Shown piece after piece: positions 2,927 through 51,897 of a stretch of DNA of 51,897 bases (its first letter is position 1; each line of letters starts with the position of its first letter). Under the pieces are notes generated by a model. That model had not been told where the DNA came from, searched no databases, and worked only from the letters and a program-made list of their open reading frames with translations. Both the position numbers and the translations under genes were made by a program. Source of the stretch: a virus (Duplodnaviria > Caudoviricetes); IMG/VR virus record IMGVR_UViG_3300032893_000068, positions 1 through 51,897 of that record. One strand, given 5' to 3'.

Positions 2927-2934
2927 AACTTTCC

Positions 2935-3771
2935 TTATTCATATACAACAACAATATCAGGCCCCGACGTTGTGACGATTGTGAGTCCTGTTGTGAATGG
3001 TATATCGTAAAAAATGGTCCCTTGGGGATTTGTGCCACTTAGTGTATGAATAATGGTTCCTGAACCTGCAGTATTGTCATAAATCGTGACGTTTCCACCC
3101 TGTGATTTAATAATACGACGTAACACACCCGCCCCTGATTTAACAGTTACAGTTGTGTTTGTGCTTATACGAGTATAGGTAGTAGTAGGCCCAAGTTCTG
3201 TGGTAGGAACATTTGTTTGATTACTAGCAATCGCTATAGGAACACTAGCAGACAGTATAGTTTGTCCAAGCGTGATTGCAGTACCACCAACTTTTGCTAA
3301 GTTTCCATTGGTAGAACCGTCTGAATTTACACTTGCAATGTTTGTTCCATCAGTGCGTTTAATCGGCCAAGCGTTTGCTACGGTGTTAGCTGAGCCTTGG
3401 GTTGCTGTTACTGTTCCACTGACAGGTTGAGTAACGGCAGAACCATCTACTTTAGCTGCTCCGGCGGCTGAGATGCTAAGAGTATTGGTTCCACCTGAGT
3501 CAATAACTTTTGTTTTTTGTGTTCCGCCTGTTAGGGTGGCATCTAAGGCCAATCCATTGGTTGTACCAATGTTAGCAGTAACTGTACCATCAACAGTTAA
3601 ACTCCCATTATTGTCATTAACAGGAATAACTGTTTGGTTGGACGCAAGCACAACAGGAACAGAGCCGGTCATTGTTGTTTGACCGAGTAACTCTGTTCCC
3701 GTCGAGGTTCTTAGATTTACTTCTTCTGCGCCGTTACTATCAACATCAGGATCGTGATAGACGCCACTCAT
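2935..3771 (-). CDS. Thr/Gly/Val-rich fibre or decoration protein
   Basis: VDGSAVTQPVSGTVTA and GQTTM..SVPVVLASNQ modules, C-terminal beta-sandwich. Confidence 0.75.
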   Translation of the reverse strand: MSGVYHDPDVDSNGAEEVNLRTSTGTELLGQTTMTGSVPVVLASNQTVIPVNDNNGSLTVDGTVTANIGTTNGLALDATLTGGTQKTKVIDSGGTNTLSISAAGAAKVDGSAVTQPVSGTVTATQGSANTVANAWPIKRTDGTNIASVNSDGSTNGNLAKVGGTAITLGQTILSASVPIAIASNQTNVPTTELGPTTTYTRISTNTTVTVKSGAGVLRRIIKSQGGNVTIYDNTAGSGTIIHTLSGTNPQGTIFYDIPFTTGLTIVTTSGPDIVVVYE

Positions 3772-3774
3772 GGA

Positions 3775-4437
3775 TTAAACTCCGATTGTTGTAACCTGCA
3801 CGTTGGTCGTACCAGACTGTTTCGCAGCTGTGATTACGCCATAATAAGTGTCAACTTCGAGGGTTGTATTGGCTGTTAGACGATAAGAATAGTCTGTACT
3901 AGATGCCGCTGACCCTAATTTAACATAGAGTGTTCCAGCTTCATTGAAAATAACAATTTTGATTCTAGCAGAGTTGGATGTTGCGAGTGTAACAGCAGAT
4001 GTTCCAACCGAGTTAGATGTTACGGTAGCAGTGCCAGTCCCACCTTGAACAACCGGCAAAGCCGATTGATCGGAGGCAATAACAACTGGGGTACTATTAG
4101 CCATAGTTTTTTGGCCAAAGGTATTAATTCTACCAGTAAATGTTGCGCTGGTTAAAAGAGTCGCAAGTGTTGCTTCCGTAGCTGCACCCGTGGGAAGTGG
4201 CAATGCAGCAGCAGATATTGGTTGTGTATGAGCCGAACCATCAACCAAGAATGTACCAGTACCAGCATTAGCTGTTACTGTGCCTGAAACTGGCTGTGTG
4301 TGGGCTGACCCATCAACAAGAAAGGTGCCTGTTCCTGCATTAGCAGTTACAGTACCTGAGACTGGTTGTGTTACACCAGAACCGTCAACTGGTAAGGGTG
4401 TATTAGAAACTACTTCTTCATTTGTAAACAATGGCAT
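3775..4437 (-). CDS. Fibre or decoration protein with tandem 24-aa repeats
   Basis: TQPVSGTVTANAGTGTFLVDGSAH occurs twice in tandem. Shares modules with 2935..3771. Confidence 0.75.
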   Translation of the reverse strand: MPLFTNEEVVSNTPLPVDGSGVTQPVSGTVTANAGTGTFLVDGSAHTQPVSGTVTANAGTGTFLVDGSAHTQPISAAALPLPTGAATEATLATLLTSATFTGRINTFGQKTMANSTPVVIASDQSALPVVQGGTGTATVTSNSVGTSAVTLATSNSARIKIVIFNEAGTLYVKLGSAASSTDYSYRLTANTTLEVDTYYGVITAAKQSGTTNVQVTTIGV

Positions 4438-21665: not shown

Positions 21666-22046
21666 TGTAGATTACTTCCTTTTAAATGAATTTTTATTTG
21701 TTACGTTTTATTCAATAGGAACTTAGACAGGAATAGACTTAGGTGTGTCATCAACAGTTTTCACCATTTCTATTGCGTTATGGGCTTCTATTTTGCTCTG
21801 CCACCGTCCCTACATTGCAGGGGTGGGAGGACTTATATGGTAGCGGAAGATGGAATCGAACCACCGATCTTAAGCTTATGAGGCTTACGAGATGCCATTT
21901 CTCTATTCCGCGAATTGGCTTGATTTTTTACATGGATTGCAAGCCAGCGGCCATGTTGCTCAATCTTTCGATATTTTGCGAATTATAGGCTTTCCCTGAC
22001 CAGGGGCGTCATTACGCTAGGGGAAGTCAACCCCAAAACGCCTAAA
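21666..22046 (-). ncRNA. Structured intergenic RNA modules flanking tRNA-Met (four-way junction, two pseudoknots, long stems)
   Basis: Complementary segments read directly from the sequence; see findings. Confidence 0.5.
21838..21912 (-). tRNA. tRNA-Met(CAU), initiator-like, CCA encoded
   Basis: CGCGGAA TA GAGA AATGGCA TCTC G TAAGC CTCATAA GCTTA AGATC GGTGG TTCGATT CCATC TTCCGCT ACCA. C1:U72 mismatch and A11:U24 pair. Confidence 0.93.
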
Positions 22047-27691: not shown

Positions 27692-27763
27692 AGCCCCCTA
27701 AAGGAATCGAACCCTTGTCAGCGGTTTACAAAACCGATGCTCTACCGATTGAGCTAAGAGGGC
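27692..27763 (-). tRNA. tRNA-Thr(UGU), CCA not encoded
   Basis: GCCCTCT TA GCTC AATCGGTA GAGC A TCGGT TTTGTAA ACCGC TGAC AAGGG TTCGATT CCTTT AGGGGGC T. Confidence 0.9.
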
Positions 27764-31600: not shown

Positions 31601-32803
31601 ATGCGAACGCTTTATAAAATAGATCGACGTTTCGAGAGTAGGGGGAGACAGTACGCCGTTGATGCGCTCACGCGCTTGATGACAATGCGAGAAGTGACAG
31701 CGGCCTACGTTCGGGAAGCAATCAAGTTAGGTGCAAAGTTTAACAGCAACAACCGCTTAGACAGTATGCGCCACGACATGAAAGAATTACGGCAACGATT
31801 CAAAAATGGTTTGATGGTGTATCATGATGACGCGCTTATGCGAACTGTGAACGGATATTCGTTTAGATCAACTATTCCGTCGGATAAACCGCGAGTAATG
31901 GCCTTAAAGATAGCTAAGGAAAGCCTCATTCGACAAATCAAAGAGTATCGACGCATGAGCAAAGTATTATACGACACTAAGGGCGCGAAAATCTTACGAC
32001 GCAAGCCGGGTCAGTTTATGATGGAAATTTTAGTTAGGCGCTTACGTGATCCGAAAACGCCAGTGACAAATGACCAATACATAGGAATTGAAATCGAGTG
32101 TGTAATGCCACGAACTGCCGATTTCACGGCGCTTGCGCCATTCCACAAATATGTAGCCGTCGGAACAGATGGAAGCGTGAACTATGAAAGCGGAGAGGAA
32201 GGCAGAGAAATCCGAGTGTGCTTAAAGCGTAGCGAAGTGAGGGACATATTGCCCAAAATCTTAGACACACTTCGGAACCTTGGCGCGTATGTCAACACGT
32301 CATGCGGGCTACACGTACATTTAGACCAGCGCAACAATCCAAGACCGGATATTGCTTTCAACAATCTTGTGCGAAGCCTTAGCCTCTTGTATAAGGTAGT
32401 CCCAGCGAGTAGACATAAAAACGGATACTGTCACCGTAACCGTACCGCAAACTGGAATGACGCAAGATATCAAGAAAGATACAAAGCAGTCAACGCAACG
32501 GCCTATGACCGATACAGAACGCTAGAGGTACGGCTTTTCGGTGGCACGTTGAACGCGACGAAAATCATAAACTGGGTTGAAACCCTAGAGGGAATCGTAG
32601 ATATGCCCGAAATGATGATGCGCTGCCCTGGTACTTTCAAACTTGCCCAAAAGAAATGGAAGCTATCAGATGAAAATGTAGCATGGCTAGAAATGCGTGA
32701 AAAAATGTTTAGTGACATAAATGTTAGTAGGACAGAAGCGGATCTAAACGGCGATGTGAACGTGCCGATAGCTGTAAACCAATTCGAAACTGTACCATTT
32801 TAA
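31601..32803 (+). CDS. Putative amidoligase (COOH-NH2 ligase, Amidoligase_2-like)
   Basis: YIGIEIE, TDGSV, GREI, VNTSCGLHVHLD, RYKAVN and TLEVRLFGGT motifs in the expected order. Confidence 0.85.
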   Translation: MRTLYKIDRRFESRGRQYAVDALTRLMTMREVTAAYVREAIKLGAKFNSNNRLDSMRHDMKELRQRFKNGLMVYHDDALMRTVNGYSFRSTIPSDKPRVMALKIAKESLIRQIKEYRRMSKVLYDTKGAKILRRKPGQFMMEILVRRLRDPKTPVTNDQYIGIEIECVMPRTADFTALAPFHKYVAVGTDGSVNYESGEEGREIRVCLKRSEVRDILPKILDTLRNLGAYVNTSCGLHVHLDQRNNPRPDIAFNNLVRSLSLLYKVVPASRHKNGYCHRNRTANWNDARYQERYKAVNATAYDRYRTLEVRLFGGTLNATKIINWVETLEGIVDMPEMMMRCPGTFKLAQKKWKLSDENVAWLEMREKMFSDINVSRTEADLNGDVNVPIAVNQFETVPF

Positions 32804-32815
32804 GGAGAAATGAAA

Positions 32816-33835
32816 ATGTGTAAACTTTACGCAGTGGTGGAAATTGAAAACAAAAAGAACGCGGAACTATTCACACGGGCAGCATTGCCAATCATAACGA
32901 AAACAGATAATCACGGGTTAGGCATTATGAGACTTGGCGAGCGGGGCGTACATATACAGCGATGGCTAGACTTGCCCGCCGTAGTGAGAAAGAATAAAAG
33001 CAAAGTGTTGATGAAATATGAGAAAGCATTAAAGCATCAAGCAAATGAGGAGGGAAATAGATCAAACAAATTGTATGCAATCGCAGTGCATGGAAGATTT
33101 GCAACTTGTGCAAAGACTCTAGCAAATACGCATCCGTTTTACAGAAACGGGACGGCCCTAATGCACAATGGAATCATAAGCAACGCGGAGAAATACGACA
33201 AGCCTTTAAGCACTTGTGACAGCGAAGCCTTACTAACTCAATACTTACAGCATGAAGTAAGAGCAAACAATATACGATTGACAGACGCGCTTAAGGATGT
33301 GAGCGGATATTATGCGACGATAGTGTTTAACGATAACGGGATAATTGACATTTGGCGAGATGAGACGGCAAGCCTTTACATCGCGCATGTTAAAGGCGTC
33401 GGGGTGGTGATAGCGACAACCAAGGAAATAATTACGGGCGCGGCCAGGAAATGCAAAGCATACATAACAGGCATTGATGAAATGCTCCCGTGGACTACAA
33501 TACGATGGCATAATGGGGTAAATCCTCGCATCGGCACGTTTGAGAATGGCAAGCCGTACCAGCTAACACATTACACAAGCGCCGCATCGGTTGTCGATGA
33601 TGAGTACAAAAAATGGTGGCAAAAACAAGACGGGACGGGCAGCATCGACGACGTGCCAGGGTATCAACCACGTGAATGGAGCAAAACAGAGAGATGGAAA
33701 GACTACGACAAGGGCAGTGGAGCGCCCGACGTGGTGGATGCATCAGAAGGACAAGGGCATAATTGGCCGGAAGGCGGCGATAGTGACGAGGATTTAGAAG
33801 CGAAGTTTCTAGCACATTTACAAAAAGGAAAATAA
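32816..33835 (+). CDS. Class II (Ntn) glutamine amidotransferase
   Basis: Start M-C 8 nt after AAGGAG gives the N-terminal Cys nucleophile; HGRFAT, NTHPF, HNGII and DSE motifs. Confidence 0.9.
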   Translation: MCKLYAVVEIENKKNAELFTRAALPIITKTDNHGLGIMRLGERGVHIQRWLDLPAVVRKNKSKVLMKYEKALKHQANEEGNRSNKLYAIAVHGRFATCAKTLANTHPFYRNGTALMHNGIISNAEKYDKPLSTCDSEALLTQYLQHEVRANNIRLTDALKDVSGYYATIVFNDNGIIDIWRDETASLYIAHVKGVGVVIATTKEIITGAARKCKAYITGIDEMLPWTTIRWHNGVNPRIGTFENGKPYQLTHYTSAASVVDDEYKKWWQKQDGTGSIDDVPGYQPREWSKTERWKDYDKGSGAPDVVDASEGQGHNWPEGGDSDEDLEAKFLAHLQKGK

Positions 33836-35281: not shown

Positions 35282-35711
35282 ACTTCTTATCATCGCATGG
35301 CTTGTCGGGAAGCTAACTATAACCAGTTACAGAAGCATTCCCCAACAAACCGATGACAGCCCATTGTACACATCAACGAATCAACACGTGTACAAGGGAG
35401 GATGTGCCATTAGTCGAGACTTGCTATGCAAAGCTTGCCGAAGGCTACATCATAGGTGCAAGCGCCCCGATGACCGGCGATACATTCATTACGGAGACTA
35501 TCTATACGTACAAGGGCATGGCATTGTACAGGTCAATGATGTAATGGGGGCAGTGGAGCATTACACAGTACGAACAAAGGGAGGCAAGAAAATTAGATTT
35601 CATACTATCCGCAATCAAATTGATATTTGGTGTGCTAGTTATGCAGAAGAAAAACGGTATGGAGTATCAAAAGTATTTGTATGGAGGTTAGAGATTAATG
35701 AAAAAATGTAA
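35274..35711 (+). CDS. 3D-domain (MltA-like) peptidoglycan-active protein
   Basis: TITSY...QTDDSPLYTS...CAISRDL...YGDYLYVQGHG...VNDVM...IDIW; hydrophobic N-terminus. Confidence 0.75.
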   Translation: MCKLLIIAWLVGKLTITSYRSIPQQTDDSPLYTSTNQHVYKGGCAISRDLLCKACRRLHHRCKRPDDRRYIHYGDYLYVQGHGIVQVNDVMGAVEHYTVRTKGGKKIRFHTIRNQIDIWCASYAEEKRYGVSKVFVWRLEINEKM

Positions 35712-36135
35712 TGTGTGTAATAAATATTTATTTCTAGAGGATTTTCACAAAAATCCTAAACATCCACAAGAGCATCATCGAACTTGTAAGAATTGTAGAA
35801 AAATAGAAACTAAAGAGCGATATAAAAAATATACTGATAAAATTAATCAACAAACTTTAGCATATAATAAAACGCATAAAATCTATCGTCGAATTGCAGT
35901 TGAAAATTATAGATGCAAAAAATTGGGGCTAACTACAAAAGTTTCTTATGATAGTTGGAGATCTATTTTATATCAACAAAATTTTAAATGTGCTAAATGT
36001 AAAGGAAAACGAAAATTGGAGATGGATCATATAATCCCAATCCTTAAAGGCGGCCAACATACTGTATCAAACATTCAAGCATTATGTAAACCATGTAATG
36101 TCCGTAAGGGAGCATACTATGATGGAAGCAAATAG
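35698..36135 (+). CDS. HNH endonuclease
   Basis: CAKC...EMDHIIPILKGGQHTVSNIQALCKPCNVRK; N-terminal CxxC pairs; AT-rich. Confidence 0.92.
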   Translation: MKKCNVCNKYLFLEDFHKNPKHPQEHHRTCKNCRKIETKERYKKYTDKINQQTLAYNKTHKIYRRIAVENYRCKKLGLTTKVSYDSWRSILYQQNFKCAKCKGKRKLEMDHIIPILKGGQHTVSNIQALCKPCNVRKGAYYDGSK

Positions 36136-38726: not shown

Positions 38727-38966
38727 ATGAAATTTAAGCTACGAACTTCTGGAAATTTTTATTCCCCAAAGGATATTGAACCTTTAGAAGCTTTAGGCTT
38801 TAAGTTTGAGGATACTTCTTTGGTTGATAAGAAAACCAAATACAAAATAGAAGATGCTGAAGTAGAAATAAATTCTCTTGAACAATTGATGGAATTTGTT
38901 TCAAAATATGGGGAAATAGTTTTGAGTAACGATGCTATTGAAATTTATGACGATTATAGGGAGTGA
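38727..38966 (+). CDS. Hypothetical protein
   Basis: EINSLEQLMEF...IEIYDDYRE motif common in phage small ORFs. Confidence 0.75.
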   Translation: MKFKLRTSGNFYSPKDIEPLEALGFKFEDTSLVDKKTKYKIEDAEVEINSLEQLMEFVSKYGEIVLSNDAIEIYDDYRE

Positions 38967-38968
38967 AT

Positions 38969-40480
38969 ATGAGCGCAATGCTCGATTGGGCGTTGCATTA
39001 TGCAACGCAAGGATTAAGCATCATCCCAGTAAAAGGAAAGACGCCATTAGTACAATGGAAACAATTTCAAGAAAGGAGAGCAAATGAGCAAGAACTTAGA
39101 GCATGGTGGAACCAGTGGCCGGACGCCGATATTGGAATGGTCACTGGTAGAATCTCCAACCGCTTTGTTATTGATTTTGACGGAGAGGAAGCACACAAAG
39201 CTTTTATCGAAGCTGTGTTCCCGATTACTTATGAAGTCAGAACGAAGCGAGGAAAGCAGTTACATTTCCTTTTTCCTAAAGACTTTACAGGAAAAACAAC
39301 TCTTGCGGGAATCGCTCCTCTTGTGGATACCAGGGGTGAAGGAGGATACGTTAAACTCCCACCGAGCGCGTATTCCGACGGTTCAGGGCGTTACACAGCC
39401 ACCACAACACCTGATAGAATCGCAGAACTCCCTGACTGGTTTTTCAGAATTCTAAAGGAAGAAAATGCGCCAAGAGAACCATTATCAACCGGCGATAGCT
39501 GGCTAGAGGAGAAATTAAATGGACTCAAAGACGGAAATCGTAATGATACTTTCACTAGCATTGCTGGTAGCTTACGCAGTAGGGGATACACTGATAAAGA
39601 TATTTTCATATTTCTTGAACCTCACGCTCGTACAATAGACTTTCCTCTTGACGAACTGAGGACAATCAGTGAGAGTGTTGGCAGCTATCCGACGAAAGTC
39701 GTTGATGAGAACGCAGAAAGTTTCAGCAAATTCTTAGAGCATCAAGAAAAGATCGAGTGGCTTCTCCCAGGAATCATAGCACGTAACAGTTTGAATTTTA
39801 CAGCAGGATGGCCGATGACAGCTAAGACGTGGATGCTTATGGACTTGGCGATTGAGGCAGCTAAAGGTGGTGGATGGTGGCTAGGAAAGTTCCCAACAAA
39901 AAAAGCAAAAGTGTTGTTCATAGATCAAGAAAGGTTTCGCGGAGAAACACAAAGAAGGTTCAAGGCATTACTTGCTGCCAAGAATCTTGCAGCAGCTTCT
40001 CTGAAAGATAATATTAGGGTGAAATGTGGATCAACCATTAGACTTAACTTGCAGCAAAGCTTCGATGCTTTCCGTAGAGAGCTTGCAGAGTATCGACCAG
40101 ACCTTGTTATTGTGGATAGTTTCGCCACATTCCATACAGCAGCAGAGAATGACCGTATGGAAATTCAGAAAGTACTTGAATTGGTCAAACAACTTAGGAC
40201 AGAATTCGGATGCGCTTTCATCTTTATCAATCACGAGAACAAAGGAATAATGAACAAGGCAGATGGAGAGGAACACCGGATGCCAAGCATGACAGACATG
40301 GCAGGAAGCATCGGAATACCAGCAGCAGCGGAAGCAATGCTGACAGTGAGACGGAAGGATTCAAACACATGCGTGGTGTATATGACAAAGAACAACTTAG
40401 CACCAGTGATTGACCCGTTTGAAGTCGTGGTAGAAGATTTAGATGTGGAGAAAACTAAAATCAGGGTAAGGGCTTTCTAG
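38969..40480 (+). CDS. Bifunctional primase-polymerase / PriCT / RecA-type (AAA_25, RepA-like) helicase
   Basis: IIPVKGKTP, DIGMVTG, VIDFD, GKQLHF, DTRGEGGYVKLPPS; GNRND; Walker A GWPMTAKT, Walker B LVIVDSF, INHENK. Confidence 0.92.
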   Translation: MSAMLDWALHYATQGLSIIPVKGKTPLVQWKQFQERRANEQELRAWWNQWPDADIGMVTGRISNRFVIDFDGEEAHKAFIEAVFPITYEVRTKRGKQLHFLFPKDFTGKTTLAGIAPLVDTRGEGGYVKLPPSAYSDGSGRYTATTTPDRIAELPDWFFRILKEENAPREPLSTGDSWLEEKLNGLKDGNRNDTFTSIAGSLRSRGYTDKDIFIFLEPHARTIDFPLDELRTISESVGSYPTKVVDENAESFSKFLEHQEKIEWLLPGIIARNSLNFTAGWPMTAKTWMLMDLAIEAAKGGGWWLGKFPTKKAKVLFIDQERFRGETQRRFKALLAAKNLAAASLKDNIRVKCGSTIRLNLQQSFDAFRRELAEYRPDLVIVDSFATFHTAAENDRMEIQKVLELVKQLRTEFGCAFIFINHENKGIMNKADGEEHRMPSMTDMAGSIGIPAAAEAMLTVRRKDSNTCVVYMTKNNLAPVIDPFEVVVEDLDVEKTKIRVRAF

Positions 40481-40485
40481 GAGAA

Positions 40486-42330
40486 ATGATGGACTTGTGG
40501 ACGCCAGAAAATGTTCCAATTCTAATAGACAACTATAGTGATTTCCCCAAAGCCCCTATTGTGTCCTTAGATATTGAAACCAATGGGAGGGAGATTGACG
40601 ATGTGGACTTTCGTTTTGTGTGTATCGGCTTTTGTGACGGGATTCGCTGCTGGTGTTATTTTGATATTAGTGACAAGTTAATTGATTATCTCCACAAGTC
40701 GCGTTGGATTGTTCAAGATGGAATTCATGCTGAGCTTCCGTGGCTCAATAAGCTCTATGGTGGATTCACACCAGAACACATCTATGCAGACACTAAAATT
40801 GGGAGCTACGTTCATGACTCAACTCGAAAAAATTACAGCCTTAAGCCTACAGTTAAAGAATATCTTGGCGTTGAATACCCAACTTATACAGACATCACTC
40901 ATAATGCAAGCTATATCGCAGCGGCTTGTCAGAGAAATCCGAATCTACGAGTCCGAACGAAGAAAGAAACGAAAGACCCCAAGAATCTTACTCTCGACCA
41001 ATTAGAGAGAGGGATTGTAGCGAACTACAATGCAGCCGATACTTATTACACATGGAAACTGCATGAATTCTTGGTAAAAAGTCAGACAACCATGGAGCGT
41101 CAGTTCCTTACCAACATTGAAATGCCGATGAATCGGCTCATCTACCGAATGGAGACACGAGGAATCAAGATTGATACATCGGAGATACGGAGAATTCACA
41201 ATGCGACAAGCAAAGAACGCCGCAAGATCAAAAAAGAATTGTTATCCCTCGCGGGAGCGCCGTTCAATCCCAACAGCCCAAAGCAAGTCTTGGAACTGCT
41301 CAAAATGCACGGCATTAATTCCAAGTCAAGCGGGGTTGACGATCTTGCGCGTTACAGAGAATCTTCAGCCTTTGTGCGACAATTGCTGGAATATAGAGGA
41401 CTCCAAAAAATTTGCAGTACTTACACCATTCCTCTTTATTTTAACGCTGTACGTGAAAAAAGCAATCGCATTCATGCTAAATTTGGTCAGAACACTATTA
41501 CAGGGAGGCTTAGCAGCAGTGACCCAGTTAATCTCCAAAATCAACCTCCCATTGTACGAAGTGCCTTCATTGCAGACAGTGGCAATTCATTCGTCGATGC
41601 TGACTGGTCAAACATCGAAATTTACATCCCAGCCCATCTCAGCGGGGAGCCACGATGGATTGACGTACTTCGTCGGCCCGACGGGGACTTACACATGGCA
41701 ACCGCAGCAAGACTATTCGGAGAGTCGGTGTACTCTCTCCCCGAAGCTGAGAGGAAAGCGAAGCGGAAGATTGCTAAAGAAACTCTCCTTACTATCACAA
41801 ACAGCGGCACCTACCGATCTCTCGCTCGAACTTTGGAATGCGATGAATCAACCGCGCAAGAGTTCGAGAGAGCTACTAAAGACCTATACCCAACTTTTGT
41901 CCACTGGCTCACGACGACGAAAAGGAAAGCGAGGGAACAAAAAGGGATAAGTTCATACTTTGGACGTTGGGTGAGTTTTCCACAGCTAACCCTTTGGTGT
42001 GGACGGCCAAATTGTGATGAGATTTGTGCGAAGAATCGAGAATTCTGTAAGCCATGTTTCATGCGCCAAGAGACAGAAAAGCAAGCTATCAGTGTCAAAG
42101 TGCAGGGAACGGCGAGTGACTTGTGTAAGATGGCAGCATTACGATTGTATCGAGAGTATGGCTATGTCCCGAATGCCTTAGTACATGATGAGATTCTGTT
42201 AGAGACGCCCGACAACAAAATTGAGGAAACACAGCAGCGAGTGAAATATGTGATGGAACATTTATATGACTTCGTTGTTCCATTGAAAGCAGAAATTAAG
42301 ATTGCTAAAAACTGGTTGGAGGCTCACTAA
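40486..42330 (+). CDS. polA: DNA polymerase family A with 3'-5' exonuclease (atypical motif B)
   Basis: LDIET, YNAAD, FNPNSPKQV, TGRLSSSDP.NLQN, DADWSNIE, DLH, VQGTASD and VHDE motifs. Confidence 0.95.
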   Translation: MMDLWTPENVPILIDNYSDFPKAPIVSLDIETNGREIDDVDFRFVCIGFCDGIRCWCYFDISDKLIDYLHKSRWIVQDGIHAELPWLNKLYGGFTPEHIYADTKIGSYVHDSTRKNYSLKPTVKEYLGVEYPTYTDITHNASYIAAACQRNPNLRVRTKKETKDPKNLTLDQLERGIVANYNAADTYYTWKLHEFLVKSQTTMERQFLTNIEMPMNRLIYRMETRGIKIDTSEIRRIHNATSKERRKIKKELLSLAGAPFNPNSPKQVLELLKMHGINSKSSGVDDLARYRESSAFVRQLLEYRGLQKICSTYTIPLYFNAVREKSNRIHAKFGQNTITGRLSSSDPVNLQNQPPIVRSAFIADSGNSFVDADWSNIEIYIPAHLSGEPRWIDVLRRPDGDLHMATAARLFGESVYSLPEAERKAKRKIAKETLLTITNSGTYRSLARTLECDESTAQEFERATKDLYPTFVHWLTTTKRKAREQKGISSYFGRWVSFPQLTLWCGRPNCDEICAKNREFCKPCFMRQETEKQAISVKVQGTASDLCKMAALRLYREYGYVPNALVHDEILLETPDNKIEETQQRVKYVMEHLYDFVVPLKAEIKIAKNWLEAH

Positions 42331-42335
42331 GTTTT

Positions 42336-42569
42336 ATGGACTGGATTTATCAACTTATTGAAAAAGAACTCCATAAACAGGATTTGAAATGGGGAAAGAA
42401 TCAAAAACATACAATAGAACAGTGGCATCTCATTCTTTCTGAAGAATTTGGAGAATTAAGTAAAGAATTAAATGAAGTTGTGTTTAGAAATAAAGAAACG
42501 AAAAGTGCAATAAACGAGGCAATTCAAACCATGGCTGTTATTTGCAGATTATTGGAGAATATTAAATGA
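42336..42569 (+). CDS. MazG-like NTP pyrophosphohydrolase
   Basis: QDLKWG...ILSEEFGELSKE...EAIQTMAV (EExGE...E acidic helix motif). Confidence 0.7.
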   Translation: MDWIYQLIEKELHKQDLKWGKNQKHTIEQWHLILSEEFGELSKELNEVVFRNKETKSAINEAIQTMAVICRLLENIK

Positions 42570-42952
42570 AATTATTTTCTTATGCAAAAGATGGTGGCAA
42601 TAATTCTAATGTTGATGGGTTTTGGTTGATTGAGATTAAATCTTTATTTTCTATTGTAATATTGAAATTTAATAGAGGCAGTAGAGAGGCATTTCATTCA
42701 CATGCTTTTAACGCATTAACATGGTGGCTTAAAGGTAGGGTAACGGAGCATCATTTAACTGAGAAGAGTAAAGAATGGCACCCGTCATTTTTGCCTAAAT
42801 TTACGCCAAGGAATTGTTTTCATAAAGTATTCGCTAATGAAGATACGTATGCCATTTCATTTCGTGGCCCGTGGCAAGATAAATGGCAAGAATACCACCC
42901 GAAAGAAAAGAAATTTATTACACTTACACATGGGCGAAAGGTGGTTAATTAA
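42566..42952 (+). CDS. Cupin-like (double-stranded beta-helix) protein
   Basis: FHSHAF...GRVTE...FHKV...FRGP metal-binding His pattern. Confidence 0.6.
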   Translation: MKLFSYAKDGGNNSNVDGFWLIEIKSLFSIVILKFNRGSREAFHSHAFNALTWWLKGRVTEHHLTEKSKEWHPSFLPKFTPRNCFHKVFANEDTYAISFRGPWQDKWQEYHPKEKKFITLTHGRKVVN

Positions 42953-43464
42953 TGAAAGTTTACTTAGCAAGAGGAATGTCAGGACGTGTAAAATCGGAAG
43001 TGGTGAAAGAGGCACGTCAAGATCGCCGCAAGCTTGACAAATTGGGCATAACTCCATTATGCCCAGTGCTGTCAGAGAATGTTCGAGCAGGAAAATCAGC
43101 CATTGCTTCTACAGTTGAACAGATGAACAATTACTGGTTTCGTGATAAACAGATGATTCGTGAAGCCAATGTAGTGTTCGACATGACGCCCGAATTAAAG
43201 AGCGAGGGAGTGGCGCATGAGATTGGATATGCACGATATTTCCTTTACAAGCCAGTTGTTCGAGTGTACAAGAACGGACAGCTACCACCGACAAGTTCAG
43301 TTGCATTCTATGAGGATGACCTGATTGTATCAAGTGTTGAAGAAGGTGCAGTGGAGGCACTTCGGCGGTGGGGAACTTGGTATCGTCGAATATTGTGGCG
43401 GTTTAGCTTGTACAAACGATGCTTACCAGGAATGATTAAAGCTTGGCTGGGAGGATGGAAATAA
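42952..43464 (+). CDS. Nucleoside 2-deoxyribosyltransferase / nucleotide N-glycosidase family protein
   Basis: KVYLA.GMSG, DKQMIREANVV and SEGVAHEIGYA...KPVV motifs. Confidence 0.75.
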   Translation: MKVYLARGMSGRVKSEVVKEARQDRRKLDKLGITPLCPVLSENVRAGKSAIASTVEQMNNYWFRDKQMIREANVVFDMTPELKSEGVAHEIGYARYFLYKPVVRVYKNGQLPPTSSVAFYEDDLIVSSVEEGAVEALRRWGTWYRRILWRFSLYKRCLPGMIKAWLGGWK

Positions 43465-43673
43465 TGTTATTCAGTAAGAAAACCTATGGAATCTTTGCGT
43501 TGTTTGGATTCGCTCTTAATTTCAATGCAGCCGTGCTATTTGTTCTCTTGCATAGCTATCTGTCATTGCTCTACATAACCCTTTCTTTCTTGTGTTATGA
43601 ATATGTGACCCAAAACTTTATGAATGAAGGAGAACAAGATGCGGACACAGGGCCGGATTCTGAGAGTAAGTAA
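43464..43673 (+). CDS. Small membrane protein
   Basis: Two hydrophobic segments; GGAGG RBS. Confidence 0.55.
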   Translation: MLFSKKTYGIFALFGFALNFNAAVLFVLLHSYLSLLYITLSFLCYEYVTQNFMNEGEQDADTGPDSESK

Positions 43674-43914
43674 GCAACAGATTGAGAAGCGGATAGAGAA
43701 GCTTAAGAAACGCATGAACAAGCTGTATGTTGAAGTGATGGCAGCAGAGAGGGCTTTGCAATTGTTCGCTCCATTGACACAGCAAGAAGTGGATGCAGCC
43801 AAGGACAAAGAAACACAGCTTCGAGAACAGATTGTGGCGGAAGTATCTAAAGTACAGCAAGAGAAACCAGAGCAGCCGACAGGGGAAGTTCCCCCAGTTG
43901 TACAAGGAGAATAA
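43624..43914 (+). CDS. Coiled-coil hypothetical protein
   Basis: AAGGAG before the internal start MRTQ. Confidence 0.65.
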   Translation: MKENKMRTQGRILRVSKQQIEKRIEKLKKRMNKLYVEVMAAERALQLFAPLTQQEVDAAKDKETQLREQIVAEVSKVQQEKPEQPTGEVPPVVQGE

Positions 43915-43915
43915 T

Positions 43916-44041
43916 ATGTTATTATTAATACTTATGGGAATCAGTGTTGTTTTTATTAATTTAGTTATTTGGGGCGGATCAATTTATCTTATTTATTTCT
44001 TAATTAAGAAACTTATTAAATATTATAAAGATAAAAAATAA
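43916..44041 (+). CDS. Small single-TM protein
   Basis: AAGGAG RBS; hydrophobic stretch followed by a basic tail. Confidence 0.55.
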   Translation: MLLLILMGISVVFINLVIWGGSIYLIYFLIKKLIKYYKDKK

Positions 44042-44055
44042 GGGAGGGTATCTAT

Positions 44056-44478
44056 ATTCCGTACATTAAAGAAGGACTCCGTAAGGAGCTTATGACCGAG
44101 CCTCAGCGAGCCAAAGACAATGTAGGTGCGATGAATTTTCTTTATTCAGAGGCTATTCTGAAAGTTTGGAATGCCAATCCGAAATATGAGACGATTCATA
44201 AACTTAGAGATGCTGTTAATTTTCATTCCCATATCCCTCAAATAGCAGAAGTTACTAAAGTTCTTGATAATAGTGGTGTTGACACTGCGGATAGCGCTGT
44301 AGCTTTAGAACTTGCTTTCTTAGAATTTTACCTTCGAGTGGGACAGCATTATGAAAGGGAAAAAAGAGATGAATCAGGTGATCTTCCAGGTTATGAGACA
44401 GCTATCAAGCATCTGAATGACATGGCACAAGCCAATTTCAATCGACGGATTGGCTTCACTCCAAAGGAGGCAAAATAA
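44056..44478 (+). CDS. Conserved phage protein (DUF6899-like), probable ATT start
   Basis: (I)PYIKEGLR...GAMNF...LELAFLEFYLRV..YEREKRDESGDL; GGGAGG precedes ATT at 44056. Confidence 0.7.
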   Translation: MPYIKEGLRKELMTEPQRAKDNVGAMNFLYSEAILKVWNANPKYETIHKLRDAVNFHSHIPQIAEVTKVLDNSGVDTADSAVALELAFLEFYLRVGQHYEREKRDESGDLPGYETAIKHLNDMAQANFNRRIGFTPKEAK

Positions 44479-45035
44479 TGGGACTGATCGGAGTATCAGG
44501 TAAAGCAAAGGCTGGGAAAGATTTACTTTGCAGTTTTGCAAATAAGGATGGCTGGACTCGATTGGCATTTGCTGATGCTTTGAAGAATAAAGTTAAAAGA
44601 GAGTTTGGACTAGAAGAAGATCATGTAAATGGTTGGCTGAAAGAAGCTGAAACAGATCTTCTTAATGGCCATAGCCCCCGCGAACTCATGATTGACATTG
44701 GCAACATCTATCGTAAATATGACCCAAATTATTGGGTGAAAACAGTGCTGGATGTCATCAAATCAAATCCAACAAAGAAAATCATGATTACAGACGTTCG
44801 CTTCCCAAATGAGGCAGATGCCATTCGCAATCATGGTGGTATTCTGGTTCGCTTGAATCGTCATCCGAAACGAGACAATTTGGTTAGTGATGAAACGAAG
44901 AAAAGCATTTCAGAAACGGCATTGGACAATTACAAGAAATGGGACTTCGAGCTTGAAGCACAAAATAATGAGACACCGGATCAATTGGCGGCTTTTTGGC
45001 AAGTTGTTTCCGCTGCCATAGGGATGAAACTCTAA
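44478..45035 (+). CDS. Deoxynucleoside monophosphate kinase
   Basis: LIGVSGKAKAGKD, AFADALK, PRELM, YWV, ITDVRFPNE and SETALD motifs. Confidence 0.9.
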   Translation: MGLIGVSGKAKAGKDLLCSFANKDGWTRLAFADALKNKVKREFGLEEDHVNGWLKEAETDLLNGHSPRELMIDIGNIYRKYDPNYWVKTVLDVIKSNPTKKIMITDVRFPNEADAIRNHGGILVRLNRHPKRDNLVSDETKKSISETALDNYKKWDFELEAQNNETPDQLAAFWQVVSAAIGMKL

Positions 45036-47297: not shown

Positions 47298-48092
47298 ATG
47301 AATAACGGGCCGCGAGTGTTGATTTTTGACGTGGAAACAGCGCCAATTGTAGCCTATACATGGGGCTTGTTTGATCAGAATGTTGGGCTTAATCAAATCA
47401 AAAGTGACTGGCACTTCCTGGCTTGGGCAGCGAAATGGTTGGGTGATCCGGCTTCAAAGACTGTATATATGGACAACAGCAAGGCTAAAAATATCTCAGA
47501 TGACAAAGAACTGATTACAGAGCTTGTCAAAATGATTGAACAGGCTGACATTGTTGTGACGCAAAACGGTGAGTCATTCGACATCAAGAAACTCAATGCA
47601 CGAGCGATTATCAATGGCTTGCCTCCAATTCGGCCAGCTAAGTCTACTGATATTCTCCGTGAAGGACGCAAGGTGTTCAAATTCACGTCTCACAAATTGG
47701 AGTACATCTCTGATACATTGAACACGAAATACAAGAAACTCAAACACAACAAGTATCCTGGCTTCGAGTTGTGGGCTGCGATTCTCAAAGGCGACAAGCG
47801 AGCATGGGCAGAGATGCGAAAATACACGATTCATGATGTGTTGTCTACAGAAGAAGCTTATGTGCGGATTCAAGGTTGGATTAAGACACAAAATCTAGCT
47901 AAATACACAGATGATGAGACAGTGCGATGTTTCTGCGGAAGCAAGAACTTACAGCATCGTGGAGTGACATATACAGCCGTGGGGCGGTATCGCCGGTATC
48001 GTTGCAATGATTGTGGAAAATGGACACGTGGAAGTAGCAACTTGTTGGCTTTTGACAAGCGTAAAAATCTAGTAAGGGAAGGTACGAAATAA
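47298..48092 (+). CDS. DnaQ/RNase H-like 3'-5' exonuclease with C-terminal Zn ribbon
   Basis: LIFDVET, QNGESFD, MRKYTIHDV; CFCGS...YRCNDCG. Confidence 0.88.
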   Translation: MNNGPRVLIFDVETAPIVAYTWGLFDQNVGLNQIKSDWHFLAWAAKWLGDPASKTVYMDNSKAKNISDDKELITELVKMIEQADIVVTQNGESFDIKKLNARAIINGLPPIRPAKSTDILREGRKVFKFTSHKLEYISDTLNTKYKKLKHNKYPGFELWAAILKGDKRAWAEMRKYTIHDVLSTEEAYVRIQGWIKTQNLAKYTDDETVRCFCGSKNLQHRGVTYTAVGRYRRYRCNDCGKWTRGSSNLLAFDKRKNLVREGTK

Positions 48093-51173: not shown

Positions 51174-51544
51174 TGGGCTTGATGAATCGTCTCACCAATG
51201 CTGCAAATCCCTATCAAGGGGAATTCAAAAAAGTGCTATGCGTTTGTTCAGCAGGACTCTTACGTTCTCCGACAGCAGCTTGGGTGCTGTCCCAAGAGCC
51301 ATTCAATTACAATACGAGAGCAGCAGGAATAGAATCTGAGTTCGCTCTTATTGTAGTTGACAAAATATTGATTGCTTGGGCTGATGAGATTGTTTGCATG
51401 ACACGAGAGCAAGAAAAAAAGCTTAAAGAGTTGACCAATAAATCAATCATCAATCTTGAGATTGAGGATGATTTTCAATACCGTGATCCAAAACTTGTAG
51501 AGTTGATTAAAGAACGCTACACTAGGGAGGCCGCTAATGCTTAA
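51173..51544 (+). CDS. Low-molecular-weight protein tyrosine phosphatase family
   Basis: P-loop VLCVCSAGLLRSPTA; WADEIVCM; IEDDFQYRDP. Confidence 0.9.
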   Translation: MGLMNRLTNAANPYQGEFKKVLCVCSAGLLRSPTAAWVLSQEPFNYNTRAAGIESEFALIVVDKILIAWADEIVCMTREQEKKLKELTNKSIINLEIEDDFQYRDPKLVELIKERYTREAANA

Positions 51545-51897
51545 ATTGTTCGTAGACGACATTCGTAGATGTCCCGATGGATGGATACTAGCTCGTACCG
51601 TGACAGAGGCTATTCGTATCCTTGCTACGCAGGATGTTTCTGAAGTGAGGCTCAATCATAATATTATTTGTAAGCCAGAGACAGGAGAAAGTCATATAAG
51701 CTGGGAGACGTTTAAAGCTGTAGCTCGCTATTTAGCATTGCTCAATGTAGTGAGGGAACTCGACAACGGTATTCCAATCAAAGCTCATATTCATATAGCA
51801 AATGCGCAAGGCGGCAATCTGCCAAAAAGTTGCTGTTCATGAAATCAATGCCGGACAAAGGCCCGACCCACATCCAATATGATTCTCCATTTGGATT
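51467..51897. repeat. Terminal direct repeat, right copy (includes a duplicate of the 71..376 gene at 51537..51842)
   Basis: Offset 51466 from the left copy. Confidence 0.95.

What the first reader, a model, noticed from the sequence alone, without database searches (positions are those of the whole stretch)
41594..42120. Family A polymerase with a rewritten nucleotide-selection helix and a five-Cys insert
Seen: motif B reads RKIAKETLLTITNSG and aligns without gaps to the canonical RxxAKxxNFGxxYG. R and K are kept, but N>L, F762>L, G>T, Y766>N and G>S (E. coli numbering). Motif A is DWSNIEIY (canonical DYSQIELR). The pre-QG motif is EKQAISVKVQG (canonical ERxAxNxxIQG) and is preceded by an insert CGRPNCDEICAKNREFCKPC. 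Catalytic Asp residues and the steric-gate Glu are intact. Established: these positions shape base-pair geometry checking. Inference: altered substrate specificity (modified base) or fidelity, plus a Zn or Fe-S module.
Basis: partly seen in the sequence, partly recalled or inferred. Interest (0 to 1): 0.78.

Follow-up and report, generated by a model that had tools for sequence, protein, structure and literature searches.

The report
Phage DNA polymerase lacking conserved tyrosine
This is the replication polymerase of an uncultured phage, from a clade that has swapped a tyrosine thought universal in this enzyme family for asparagine and added a four-cysteine, probably metal-binding, loop; it is a new natural variant of a textbook enzyme, and there is no sign that it serves modified DNA.

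Summary

It belongs to a metagenome-only clade. In the 67 aligned family members:
- The residue that ends the O-helix (E. coli Tyr766, position B4) is Asn in 67 of 67.
- Gly767 is Ser in 67 of 67.
- Four cysteines in an insert before motif 6 are kept in 66 of 67; the exception is truncated.
- The fifth Cys is private to a few members.

The window sits in a 4-member subclade that also changed Asn761 and Phe762 to Leu. Leu762 itself is common in viral PolAs.

The catalytic Asp residues, the steric-gate Glu, the O-helix Arg and Lys, and the exonuclease carboxylates are conserved. The AlphaFold model is a confident Klenow fold.

No thymidylate-synthase, PurZ, TGT or ThyX homologue is present. The neighbouring nucleotide-metabolism genes also occur beside canonical-Tyr polymerases, so the modified-base idea is unsupported.

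No family member was found in cultured phages or in 185,579 bacterial species genomes.

Verdict: a working replicase with a remodelled base-pair pocket and a probable Zn knuckle, and a new variant of a known kind. The biochemistry is untested.

The parts
40486..42330 (+). polA: 614-aa family A DNA polymerase with a 3'-5' exonuclease domain and a polymerase domain (P0001)
   Evidence: ORF and translation. Pfam DNA_pol_A 2.3e-63 over residues 233-612. phrog_17 2.1e-106. Best solved relatives are Taq at 5e-46 and Klenow at 5e-38. AF2 model pLDDT 94.8, pTM 0.91. Foldseek top hit is Klenow 8oo6, E 1.7e-32.
40486..41085 (+). 3'-5' exonuclease domain (about residues 1-200). Exo I is LDIETNG (D29, E31). 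Exo II reads D78...A82-E83 in place of N...Y-D. Exo III is Y181-x3-D185.
   Evidence: Pfam DNA_pol_A_exo1 is weak (7e-4, 19.8 bits, below the cut-off), residues 22-198. In the family rows: D29 66 of 67, E31 66 of 67, E83 65 of 67, Y181 67 of 67, D185 67 of 67. Foldseek aligns about 655 columns to the Klenow fragment. Activity is inferred, not shown.
41602..41625 (+). Motif A, DWSNIEIY. D373 is the catalytic Asp705 and E378 is the steric-gate Glu710. Tyr706>Trp, Gln708>Asn, Arg712>Tyr.
   Evidence: In the family: D 67 of 67, E 67 of 67, Asn at 708 in 66 of 67, Trp at 706 in 56 of 67, Tyr at 712 in 10 of 67.
41764..41808 (+). Motif B (O-helix), RKIAKETLLTITNSG. R427=Arg754 and K431=Lys758. L434 is at Asn761, L435 at Phe762 (B3), T436 at Gly763, N439 at Tyr766 (B4) and S440 at Gly767.
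   Evidence: The AF2 helix 420-438 ends just before N439. Asn at B4 in 67 of 67 family rows; Leu at B3 in 5 of 67.
41998..42057 (+). Cys insert, CGRPNCDEICAKNREFCKPC. It adds 18 residues to the loop between the GRW strand and the long helix that carries motif 6. The conserved pattern is C-x4/5-C...C-x2-C (C505, C510, C521, C524).
   Evidence: The baseline loop is 21 residues with no Cys in P0072, P0123, P0128, P0130 and P0145, against 39 residues here. The AF2 model has a short helix at 510-517, and C521/C524 lie at the start of helix 522-558; block pLDDT is 76-90. Metal binding is inferred.
42076..42108 (+). Motif 6, EKQAISVKVQG. K532 is at Arg841, S536 at Asn845, and Q540=Gln849.
   Evidence: In the family: Ser at 845 in 66 of 67, Gln849 in 66 of 67, and position 841 is Arg 56, Lys 4, other 6.
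42178..42192 (+). Motif C, LVHDE. H567, D568 (catalytic Asp882), E569.
   Evidence: H 66 of 67 and D 66 of 67. Position 883 is Glu 50, Ser 14, Ala 2.
38963..40480 (+). Upstream partner gene: a Prim-Pol (AEP) primase fused to an AAA_25/DnaB-like helicase. It ends 5 nt before polA.
   Evidence: Pfam Prim-Pol 4.4e-29, PriCT_1 8.3e-8, AAA_25 6.8e-32. It is syntenic with polA in L001, L002, L003, L004, L006, L007 and L008. That the two proteins work together is inferred from adjacency only.

Best explanation
This is the replicative, proofreading family A DNA polymerase of a roughly 51.5-kb uncultured tailed phage. It most likely works with the Prim-Pol/helicase encoded just upstream.

Chemistry is expected to be the ordinary two-metal mechanism:
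- Asp373 and Asp568, with Glu569, as the catalytic acidic residues.
- dNTP phosphates held by Arg427 and Lys431 of the O-helix.
- Ribose selection by Glu378.

What differs is the pocket that gates and checks the nascent base pair.
- The tyrosine that ends the O-helix (E. coli Tyr766) stacks on the template in the open state and pairs with Glu710 in the closed state. Here it is Asn.
- Gly767 is Ser, and Gly763 is Leu in the family (Thr here).
- Gln708 is Asn, and Asn845 is Ser.
- The window's subclade has gone further, with Asn761 and Phe762 both changed to Leu.

I infer that the bulkier residue at 763, one helical turn before 766, partly fills the space left by the tyrosine. I also infer that the enzyme closes and selects nucleotides with different kinetics from Pol I. 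Lower intrinsic insertion accuracy at A/T templates is expected from Klenow Y766A, and the retained exonuclease would clean up the errors.

The 18-residue insert with four invariant Cys is most likely a structural Zn knuckle. It stiffens a loop beside the template-binding residues that precede motif 6. It may add a contact to the single-stranded template or to the helicase.

Shown: the sequence features, their conservation, the fold, single-clade placement and the gene context. Inferred: activity, metal binding and the effect on fidelity.
For: - Family assignment and fold.
- Conservation in 67 family rows: D705, E710 and K758 in 67 of 67; R754, D882, H881 and Q849 in 66 of 67; exonuclease D29/E31/E83/Y181/D185 in 65-67 of 67; Asn at B4 in 67 of 67; Ser at 767 in 67 of 67; Leu or Thr at 763 in 62 and 5; all four Cys in 66 of 67.
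- Among the 268 retrieved PolAs, Asn at B4 occurs only in this family and its nearest outgroup (P0072, P0123, P0136). That is 74 rows, against 187 with Tyr and 3 with Phe.
- Tree of 55 rows: the Asn clade of 36 rows has SH-aLRT 95, and the Cys-insert clade of 34 rows has 100. This is consistent with a single origin of each trait.
- The gene is the only polymerase found. It sits in a conserved module of PD-(D/E)XK nuclease, Prim-Pol-helicase and PolA, with an NDT-like gene, EndoVII, an RNA-ligase-like gene and a trypsin-like peptidase downstream.
- Function of Tyr766 and the Y766A mutator phenotype: passages of Hohlbein 2013, PMC3715850.
- An engineered KlenTaq pairing a bulky residue at 668 (= E. 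coli 763) with a small one at 671 (= 766) is an active enzyme: passages of PMC5768020.
- Taq Glu742 contacts the template. Environmental PolAs carry 3- or 9-residue insertions at Taq 738/739, within a residue or two of where HMMER places this insert (Taq 735-737): passages of PMC4153296, alignment.
Against: - No biochemical data exist for any member.
- Klenow Y766A and Y766S are impaired mutators, so a natural Asn could equally mean a slow or specialised enzyme.
- I could not inspect model coordinates. The geometry of the four Cys and the proximity of residue 436 to 439 are not verified.
- 16 of 66 family members have Ser or Ala at Glu883, so the active site is looser than in Pol I.
- The exonuclease Pfam match is below the cut-off.
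- The tree used the quick LG+G4 search only.
Confidence: 0.7

Rival explanations
1. The rewritten pocket is an adaptation to a non-canonical nucleotide. On this view these phages carry a modified base, the polymerase is tuned to insert or copy it, and the neighbouring MazG-like, cupin, NDT-like and dNMP-kinase genes remodel the dNTP pool.
For: - Several base-pair-contacting positions are changed together.
- A MazG-like gene, a cupin (phrog_4786), a weak NDT-like gene and a dNMP kinase lie directly downstream.
- The NDT-like gene is syntenic with PolA in L001, L002, L004 and L006.
- Changes at KlenTaq Y671 alter the response to a modified template base.
- DpoZ shows that PolA clades can specialise for a modified base.
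Against: - No ThyA/hydroxymethylase-type, PurZ-type, TGT/DpdA-type or ThyX homologue in the 99%-complete record.
- No base-modifying family among the 28 different plus-strand ORFs and the 2 structural genes (terminase, major head protein) scanned.
- The NDT-like gene also accompanies canonical-Tyr PolAs in L007 and L008. The dNMP kinase was found only in L001/L006. The MazG-like gene and the cupin were found in none of L001-L008. So no neighbour co-varies with Asn at B4.
- The B4 residue is Asn, not the Phe reported for DpoZ.
Confidence: 0.12
2. The four Cys bind an iron-sulfur cluster rather than Zn. I found no report of one in a family A polymerase. The role could be redox-sensing or structural, by analogy with the CysB motif of eukaryotic B-family polymerases (that analogy is recalled, not from a call).
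For: Four invariant Cys in two pairs. Cys4 sites that look like Zn sites have turned out to hold Fe-S clusters in viral replication proteins (search listing and abstract starts only).
Against: - The short spacings (C-x4/5-C and C-x2-C at a helix start) are typical of Zn knuckles.
- Nothing in the window encodes Fe-S assembly functions among the ORFs scanned.
- Related lineages carry inserts with only 3 Cys at the same loop (P0141, P0155).
- No data separate the two metals.
Confidence: 0.12
3. The enzyme is a deliberately low-fidelity or lesion-tolerant polymerase (a natural mutator) that raises the phage's mutation rate, rather than an accuracy-compensated replicase.
For: Klenow Y766A is a mutator that populates the partially closed state. 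Asn845, changed here to Ser, is recalled as another fidelity residue of Klenow (recall, not from a call).
Against: - The exonuclease motifs are conserved.
- The family is old and diverse, and its genomes are syntenic.
- In the window's subclade Phe762 is Leu. That change is reported to make Taq slower but more accurate (Suzuki 2000, as cited in passages of PMC6302109).
Confidence: 0.1
4. The gene is a decaying or non-catalytic polymerase homologue.
For: Loss of a residue described as universally conserved, and Glu883 lost in 16 of 66 relatives.
Against: - All the other catalytic and substrate-binding residues are conserved in 66-67 of 67 rows that span 44-68% identity.
- The ORFs are full length in many independent contigs.
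- The model is confident.
- It is the only polymerase gene seen in a 99%-complete genome.
Confidence: 0.03

Closest known systems
Bacterial DNA polymerase I large fragments (Klenow, KlenTaq, Bst LF)
   Same: Same two-domain exonuclease plus polymerase Klenow fold (Foldseek E 1.7e-32, TM about 0.78; phmmer 5e-46 to Taq). Same catalytic Asp pair, steric-gate Glu, O-helix Arg/Lys, and Gln849/His881.
   Different: About 24-31% identity. No 5'-3' exonuclease domain. Changed positions: Tyr766>Asn, Gly767>Ser, Gly763>Leu/Thr, Gln708>Asn, Asn845>Ser, Ile679>Gln. Exo II reads A-E instead of Y-D. There is an 18-residue Cys4 insert before motif 6.
Engineered O-helix variants: Klenow Y766A/S/F and KlenTaq G668Y/Y671A
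   Same: They lack the O-helix tyrosine. The KlenTaq double mutant pairs a bulky residue at 668 (= E. coli 763) with a small one at 671 (= 766), the same two positions that are changed in this family.
   Different: Those are laboratory mutants with impaired closing, or raised error at a modified template base. Here the change is natural, fixed in a whole clade, uses Asn, and comes with further pocket changes. Its effect is unmeasured.
DpoZ polymerases of Z-genome phages (phiVC8-like and Wayne-like clusters of Czernecki 2023, PMC10201439)
   Same: Phage PolA clades singled out by a substitution at position B4 of motif B.
   Different: DpoZ has Phe at B4 and occurs with PurZ. The phiVC8-like cluster has an insertion in motif B. 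Here B4 is Asn, motif B has no insertion, and no PurZ-like gene is present. DpoZ was not among the 60 best solved-structure matches.
Leu762 viral PolAs (Leu762 groups I/II of Nasko 2018; SPO2-like and APEX clusters of Czernecki 2023)
   Same: The window's protein has Leu at position 762 (B3), as do 5 of 67 family members.
   Different: Those groups keep Tyr766. They neighbour SNF2, RecB-like or UvrD-like helicases. The window's Leu762 arose inside a Phe762 family that uses a Prim-Pol/AAA_25 helicase.
Environmental PolA fragments with 3- or 9-residue insertions at Taq 738/739 (Yamagami 2014, PMC4153296)
   Same: An insertion in the same template-facing loop that precedes Taq Glu742.
   Different: The passages I read do not say whether those inserts contain Cys. 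The insert here is 18 residues with four conserved Cys.

Membership tests
Family A DNA polymerase (Pfam PF00476) | Significant match to the family profile over the whole polymerase domain | tested here: met
   E 2.3e-63, 214.8 bits against a cut-off of 34.3; residues 233-612 cover profile positions 3-381 of 381.
Family A DNA polymerase (Pfam PF00476) | Catalytic carboxylates of motifs A and C (Asp705, Asp882) and the O-helix Arg754/Lys758 | tested here: met
   D373, D568, R427 and K431 are present, and conserved in 66-67 of 67 relatives.
Family A DNA polymerase (Pfam PF00476) | Tyr at the end of the O-helix (Tyr766, B4), described as universally conserved in A-family polymerases (PMC3715850) | tested here: not met
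   Asn439 here, and Asn in 67 of 67 family rows. The literature statement was read in passages. This is a conserved residue rather than a criterion of homology, so membership stands.
Family A DNA polymerase (Pfam PF00476) | Klenow-type fold with thumb, palm and fingers plus a 3'-5' exonuclease lobe | tested here: met
   AF2 pLDDT 94.8. The Foldseek top 50 are all Pol I large fragments, E about 1e-30 to 1e-32.
DpoZ (Z-genome PolA) | Phe at B4 | tested here: not met
   Asn at B4. The criterion comes from passages of PMC10201439.
DpoZ (Z-genome PolA) | Co-occurrence with PurZ (an adenylosuccinate-synthetase homologue) | tested here: not met
   PF00709 has 0 matches in the 99%-complete record, and the control rang in 14 of 14 genomes.
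DpoZ (Z-genome PolA) | Phylogenetic placement in the phiVC8-like or Wayne-like clusters | not tested
   No DpoZ sequence was fetched. The nearest relatives by search are phage-size PolAs and bacterial Pol I.
Leu762 viral PolA groups (Nasko 2018) | Leu at position 762 | tested here: met
   L435.
Leu762 viral PolA groups (Nasko 2018) | Neighbouring SNF2 / RecB-like / UvrD-like helicases, and descent within a Leu762 clade | tested here: not met
   The neighbour is a Prim-Pol plus AAA_25/DnaB-like helicase. The window's subclade is nested among Phe762 members.
Zn-knuckle / Cys4 metal site | Four conserved Cys in two closely spaced pairs | tested here: met
   C-x4/5-C ... C-x2-C in 66 of 67 rows.
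Zn-knuckle / Cys4 metal site | Tetrahedral geometry and bound metal | not testable with these tools
   Model coordinates are not exposed, and there are no metal data.

The most novel reading that the evidence does not exclude
These phages use a family A replicase that gates and checks the templating base without the O-helix tyrosine. On this reading, the reason is one of two things. Either the genome carries a non-canonical base made by an undescribed route, or the Cys4 module is a redox-active Fe-S cluster, for which I found no report in family A, that couples replication to the host's physiological state.
Probability: 0.12. Interest if true: 0.85.

Novelty: new variant of a known kind. Interest (0 to 1): 0.6.

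Why it matters
Tyr766 is a cornerstone of the textbook model of nucleotide selection by Pol I-type enzymes. [quoted passage not shown] In the passages I read it is described as universally conserved or invariant. The only natural exception named there is Phe in DpoZ.

A diverse natural clade with Asn at this position gives enzymologists an evolved solution to compare with the crippled laboratory mutants. It is also a set of compensating substitutions chosen by nature. The members would be candidate enzymes with unusual substrate tolerance for biotechnology.

The Cys4 loop would be a metal site of a kind I found no report of in family A. The same loop has gained Cys-rich inserts in several lineages, which suggests a general function at the point where the template enters.

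All of this can be tested by expressing a 614-residue protein.

Tried and rejected
- **Pairwise register of motif B.** HMMER against Taq introduces a 4-residue gap. I rejected it in favour of the gap-free family alignment. Both registers put Asn439 at Tyr766.
- **"Five-Cys" module.** Rejected; only four Cys are conserved.
- **Modified-DNA link.** I looked for ThyA, PurZ/AdSS, TGT/DpdA and ThyX and found nothing. I scanned 28 different plus-strand ORFs and 2 structural genes with Pfam and/or PHROGs and found no base-modifying family. Most minus-strand structural ORFs and most ORFs under 100 aa were not scanned.
- **Co-variation of neighbours with Asn at B4.** None found. Only 10 kb on each side of 8 loci was compared.
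- **Single origin of the second O-helix state** (the window's subclade plus P0022). The AU test rejects it: p 0.0024, lnL difference 72.8, 40 rows, motif B columns removed. The group was named after I had seen the first tree, so the p-value is optimistic. Transfer of the segment by recombination is not excluded.
- **Host or cultured relative.** All 1689 matching phage records are under 60% identical in PolA, and those listed are at most 31%. The terminase matches only 2 records, at most 26.5% identity. No family member is among the best 80 of 155 GTDB hits, where the highest identity is 32%. The host stays unknown.
- **Protein atlas on residues 480-560** returned only generic PolA clusters.
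- **Literature.** I searched for a metal site in family A and for natural Tyr766 variants, and searched within PMC10201439, PMC6302109 and PMC9069017 for zinc, cysteine and 766. None of these described an Asn-766 clade or a Cys insert. They are word searches of an open-access library, and supplements were closed, so the motif logos of PMC10201439 (figures are not held) and its supplementary tables were not seen. Absence from print is not proven.
- **Earlier scan notes.** By sequence, no look-alike. By words, nothing relevant.
Full report
**What is at the locus**

The window is one IMG/VR virus record of 51,897 bases, estimated 99% complete. Bases 1-431 are repeated at 51467-51897. The first 366 are identical, and six mismatches follow.

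Structural genes (terminase, portal-size ORFs, major head protein) lie on the minus strand. An early and replication arm lies on the plus strand.

The finding sits in ORF 40486-42330 (+), 614 aa, kept as P0001. The evidence that it is a family A polymerase:
- Pfam DNA_pol_A, 2.3e-63, over residues 233-612.
- A sub-threshold 3'-5' exonuclease match over residues 22-198.
- phrog_17, 2.1e-106.
- Best solved relatives are Taq (5e-46) and Klenow (5e-38).

An AlphaFold2 model built on a 72-row alignment has mean pLDDT 94.8 and pTM 0.91. Its 50 best Foldseek matches in the PDB are all Pol I large fragments; the top one is 8oo6 at E 1.7e-32 and TM about 0.78.

**Checking the observation**

- DWSNIEIY, 41602-41625
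- RKIAKETLLTITNSG, 41764-41808
- CGRPNCDEICAKNREFCKPC, 41998-42057
- EKQAISVKVQG, 42076-42108
- LVHDE, 42178-42192

The stated start, 41594, is one base out of frame. That does not matter for the claim.

**The family**

A word-seeded search of 5.8 billion proteins returned a discrete group of 70 proteins, P0003-P0072, at 36-68% identity. All come from metagenomic sources, many on contigs of 40-53 kb. Identity then drops sharply to about 30% for bacterial Pol I.

I aligned P0001, P0003-P0068 and five outgroups as alignment A1. I left out P0002, the window's own record, and the 357-358-aa pieces P0069-P0071.

In the 67 family rows:

| Position (E. coli numbering) | Residues found |
|---|---|
| Tyr766 (B4) | Asn 67 of 67 |
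| Gly767 | Ser 67 of 67 |
| Gly763 | Leu 62, Thr 5 |
| Phe762 (B3) | Phe 62, Leu 5 |
| Asn761 | Asn 61, Leu 4, Met 1, Asp 1 |
| Asp705, Glu710, Lys758 | kept in 67 of 67 |
| Arg754, Asp882, His881, Gln849 | kept in 66 of 67 |
| Asn845 | Ser 66 of 67 |
| Gln708 | Asn 66 of 67 |
| Exonuclease residues D29, E31, E83, Y181, D185 | kept in 65-67 of 67 |
| C505, C510, C521, C524 | all four present in 66 of 67 (the exception is truncated) |
| C514 column | Cys in only 1 of 67 |

So the family consensus for motif B is R-x-x-A-K-T-C-N-F-L-L-T-N-S-G. The family-wide oddity is Tyr766>Asn with Gly767>Ser and Gly763>Leu.

**How unusual this is**

- Tyr in 187 rows.
- Asn in 74 rows. All are the family, or P0072, P0123 and P0136.
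- Phe in 3 rows.

The sample is biased towards near relatives, so these are not global frequencies.

An exhaustive HMMER pass over 1.84 billion 50%-identity representatives found 26,209 PolA-like proteins. Only two full-length representatives of this family were among the best 150 (P0017, P0054), plus fragments. The next hit was P0123, at 38%.

Further searches for family members:
- IMG/VR holds five family loci: L001, L002, L003, L004 and L006. L001 and L006 look like the same phage. It also holds one Asn-type outgroup, L005.
- The one-genome-per-species GTDB set (185,579 species) holds none. The best of 155 relatives is 32% identical.
- None of 1689 matching cultured or deposited phage records reaches 60% identity, and those listed reach at most 31%.
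- The terminase is only 26.5% identical to its best phage match.

The clade is therefore uncultured, apparently not a prophage, and distant from known phages.

**What the literature says**

- Passages of Hohlbein et al. 2013 (PMC3715850) describe Glu710 and Tyr766 as universally conserved in A-family polymerases, and the 710-766 hydrogen bond as invariant. [quoted passage not shown] Y766A is a mutator that favours the open and partially closed states and handles A and T templates poorly. Y766F behaves like wild type.
- Passages and three sections of Czernecki et al. 2023 (PMC10201439) sort PolAs into 19 clusters. They call B3 (Phe762) the most variable conserved position, with Leu in the SPO2-like and APEX clusters. 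They state that Phe at B4 is a unique substitution of the two DpoZ clusters. Word searches in that text found no mention of zinc or cysteine. The figure logos and supplements were not available to me.
- Passages of Nasko et al. 2018 (PMC6302109) report Leu762 as the commonest type in viromes (934 of 2,045 and 624 of 1,215).
- Keown et al. 2022 (PMC9069017) expressed 14 Leu762 enzymes. The text does not mention position 766 or cysteines.

The Asn766 part does not.

**Order of events**

I built a quick maximum-likelihood tree of 55 rows (LG+G4, SH-aLRT support, rooted on three bacterial Pol I).
- The core family of 34 rows is a clade with support 100.
- Its sister is P0072+P0123, support 99. These have Asn at B4 but the canonical motif A (DYSQIELR) and no Cys insert.
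- The joint Asn clade of 36 rows has support 95.
- The next branches out have Tyr at B4.

L005 is a third Asn-type, insert-free polymerase. L007 (33% identity) and L008 (28%) have canonical F..Y motifs. Even so, they share the PD-(D/E)XK nuclease and/or the Prim-Pol-helicase, the NDT-like gene, the PolB-exo-like gene and the trypsin-like peptidase with the window.

The simplest reading, rooted on the bacterial Pol I outgroup, is descent within one phage group in three steps: Tyr>Asn first, then the Cys insert together with DWSN in motif A, then Asn761/Phe762>Leu in the window's four-member subclade (support 100).

P0022 carries a very similar second O-helix state (K-E-A-M-L-T-I-A-N-S-G) but lies outside that subclade. 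With the motif B columns removed, an AU test rejects joining them: p 0.0024, lnL difference 72.8. The caveat is that the group was defined after I saw the tree. The second state either arose twice or was moved by recombination. Either way it looks like a coherent alternative solution rather than drift.

**The wider pocket**

I compared the 74 Asn rows with the 190 Tyr/Phe rows. These positions are at least 90% one residue in the Asn clade and at most 10% that residue elsewhere:
- Ile679>Gln
- Gln708>Asn
- Gly763>Leu
- Ile765>Thr
- Tyr766>Asn
- Gly767>Ser
- Met768>Gly
- Arg822>Val
- Asn845>Ser
- Exo II Asp424>Glu

The remodelling therefore extends beyond the O-helix to motifs 2, A and 6.

Positions 763 and 766 are one helical turn apart, so a Leu at 763 could fill part of the space a tyrosine would occupy. 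This is an inference. An engineered KlenTaq with G668Y plus Y671A, which are the same two positions, is an active enzyme with an altered response to m6A templates (PMC5768020 passages).

**The Cys insert**

The loop between the conserved G-R-[WR] strand and the A-E-R of motif 6 is 21 residues with no Cys in P0072, P0123, P0128, P0130 and a bacterial Pol I. It is 38-39 residues with 4-5 Cys in the family.

In the model, C505 and C510 flank a turn that leads into a short helix (510-517). C521 and C524 sit at the start of the long helix 522-558 that carries motif 6. Block pLDDT there is 76-90. Two closely spaced pairs, one of them at a helix N-terminus, is the usual layout of a Zn knuckle. I could not check the geometry.

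Other phage-size PolAs with canonical Tyr766 carry separate Cys-rich inserts in the same loop: P0132 with 4 Cys, P0133 with 4, P0154 with 4, and P0141 and P0155 with 3 each. Each of P0132 and P0133 has an insert-free sister in the tree. The loop is therefore a recurrent site for such modules.

HMMER places the insert at Taq residues 735-737. Yamagami et al. 2014 (PMC4153296 passages) report two relevant points:
- Taq Glu742 contacts the template in the closed complex, and charge at 742/743 controls DNA affinity and extension rate.
- Environmental PolA fragments carry 3- or 9-residue insertions at Taq 738/739.

Arg841, just downstream, is described as stabilising the template strand (PMC9324360 passage). 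It is Lys in the window's subclade.

I therefore read the module as a metal-stiffened extension of the template-binding surface. Zn is the default metal and Fe-S is not excluded.

**Modified DNA?**

Directly downstream of polA are:
- a MazG-like gene (phrog_2831, function unknown);
- a cupin (phrog_4786);
- a weak NDT-like gene (Pfam 6.7e-5, below the cut-off);
- a dNMP kinase (phrog_139, 1.9e-37).

Further on come an RNA-ligase-like gene, EndoVII, a PolB-exo-like RNase H-fold gene and a trypsin-like peptidase. An amidoligase and glutamine-amidotransferase pair opens the arm at 31601-33835. The scan's first-reader notes on this window list the same clusters.

Against a modification pathway:
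- ThyA, AdSS/PurZ, TGT and ThyX profiles find nothing in the record, while the controls ring in 5-14 of 14 genomes.
- The NDT-like gene also accompanies Tyr-type PolAs (L007, L008).
- The kinase was seen only in L001/L006.
- The MazG-like gene, the cupin and the amidoligase pair were found in none of L001-L008 within 10 kb.

No neighbour tracks Asn766. The hypothesis is not excluded, because a new pathway could be hidden in the unannotated ORFs, but nothing here supports it.

**Verdict**

The gene is a bona fide family A polymerase and very probably the phage's working replicase. It represents a previously undescribed natural variant of the active site, as far as my searches can show, together with a probable Zn module.

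The functional consequences (closing kinetics, fidelity, substrate range, metal) are inferred and need biochemistry.

Limits of this work:
- The trees are quick searches.
- Paper supplements were closed.

Noticed in passing
window 1-431 and 51467-51897: The two ends of the record repeat each other. 366 bases are identical, then there are 6 mismatches in the next 65. The same small ORF (phrog_1479) is read at both ends. IMG/VR labels the record linear. This could be a direct terminal repeat, or a circular assembly overlap with microdiversity.
   Followed up: partly
relatives of P0001, motif C column 569 (window 42190-42192): 16 of 66 family members have Ser (14) or Ala (2) in place of Glu883 in motif C (HDS or HDA instead of HDE). 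The window keeps Glu.
   Followed up: no
L004:1649-3876: In this family member polA is split into a 263-aa exonuclease/thumb ORF (1649-2437) and a 360-aa polymerase ORF (2797-3876). Between them lies a 133-aa ORF (2418-2816) with Cys pairs that looks like a free-standing homing endonuclease. P0069-P0071 (357-358 aa) look like the same stand-alone polymerase half.
   Followed up: partly
P0022 versus window 41764-41808: A near-identical second O-helix state (K-E-A-M-L-T-I-A-N-S-G) occurs in P0022, outside the window's subclade. The AU test rejects joining them (p 0.0024) with the motif columns removed. This points to convergence or to local recombination of the helix.
   Followed up: yes
P0132, P0133, P0141, P0154, P0155 (loop equivalent to window 41998-42057): Other phage-size PolAs with canonical Tyr766 carry their own 3- or 4-Cys inserts in the same pre-motif-6 loop. 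P0132 and P0133 each have an insert-free sister in the tree. The loop is a recurrent site for Cys-rich modules.
   Followed up: partly
window 31601-33835: An Amidoligase_2 gene (4.5e-14) is followed by a class II glutamine amidotransferase-like gene (3.4e-5, below the cut-off) at the start of the plus-strand arm. No counterpart lies within 10 kb of polA in L001-L008.
   Followed up: no
window 42336-45035: The cluster holds a MazG-like gene (77 aa), a cupin (phrog_4786), an NDT-like gene and a dNMP kinase. The NDT-like gene and the ORF at 44092-44478 are syntenic with polA in several relatives, including L007, which has a canonical-Tyr PolA. The NDT-like gene is also in L008.
   Followed up: partly
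window 47298-48092: A stand-alone RNase H-fold protein with weak PolB-exonuclease matches (RNase_H_2 6.4e-9, DNA_pol_B_exo2 2.1e-5). It is conserved in L003 (61%), L008 (43%), L007 and L005. It may be a second exonuclease of the replication module.
   Followed up: no
window 35698-36135: An HNH endonuclease (9.2e-13) whose N-terminal part gives a weak match to the C4 zinc finger of DNA polymerase delta (zf-C4pol, 1e-3, below the cut-off).
   Followed up: no
window 21838-21912 and 27692-27763: Two tRNA genes on the minus strand, inside the structural arm: tRNA-Met (CAT) and tRNA-Thr (TGT).
   Followed up: no
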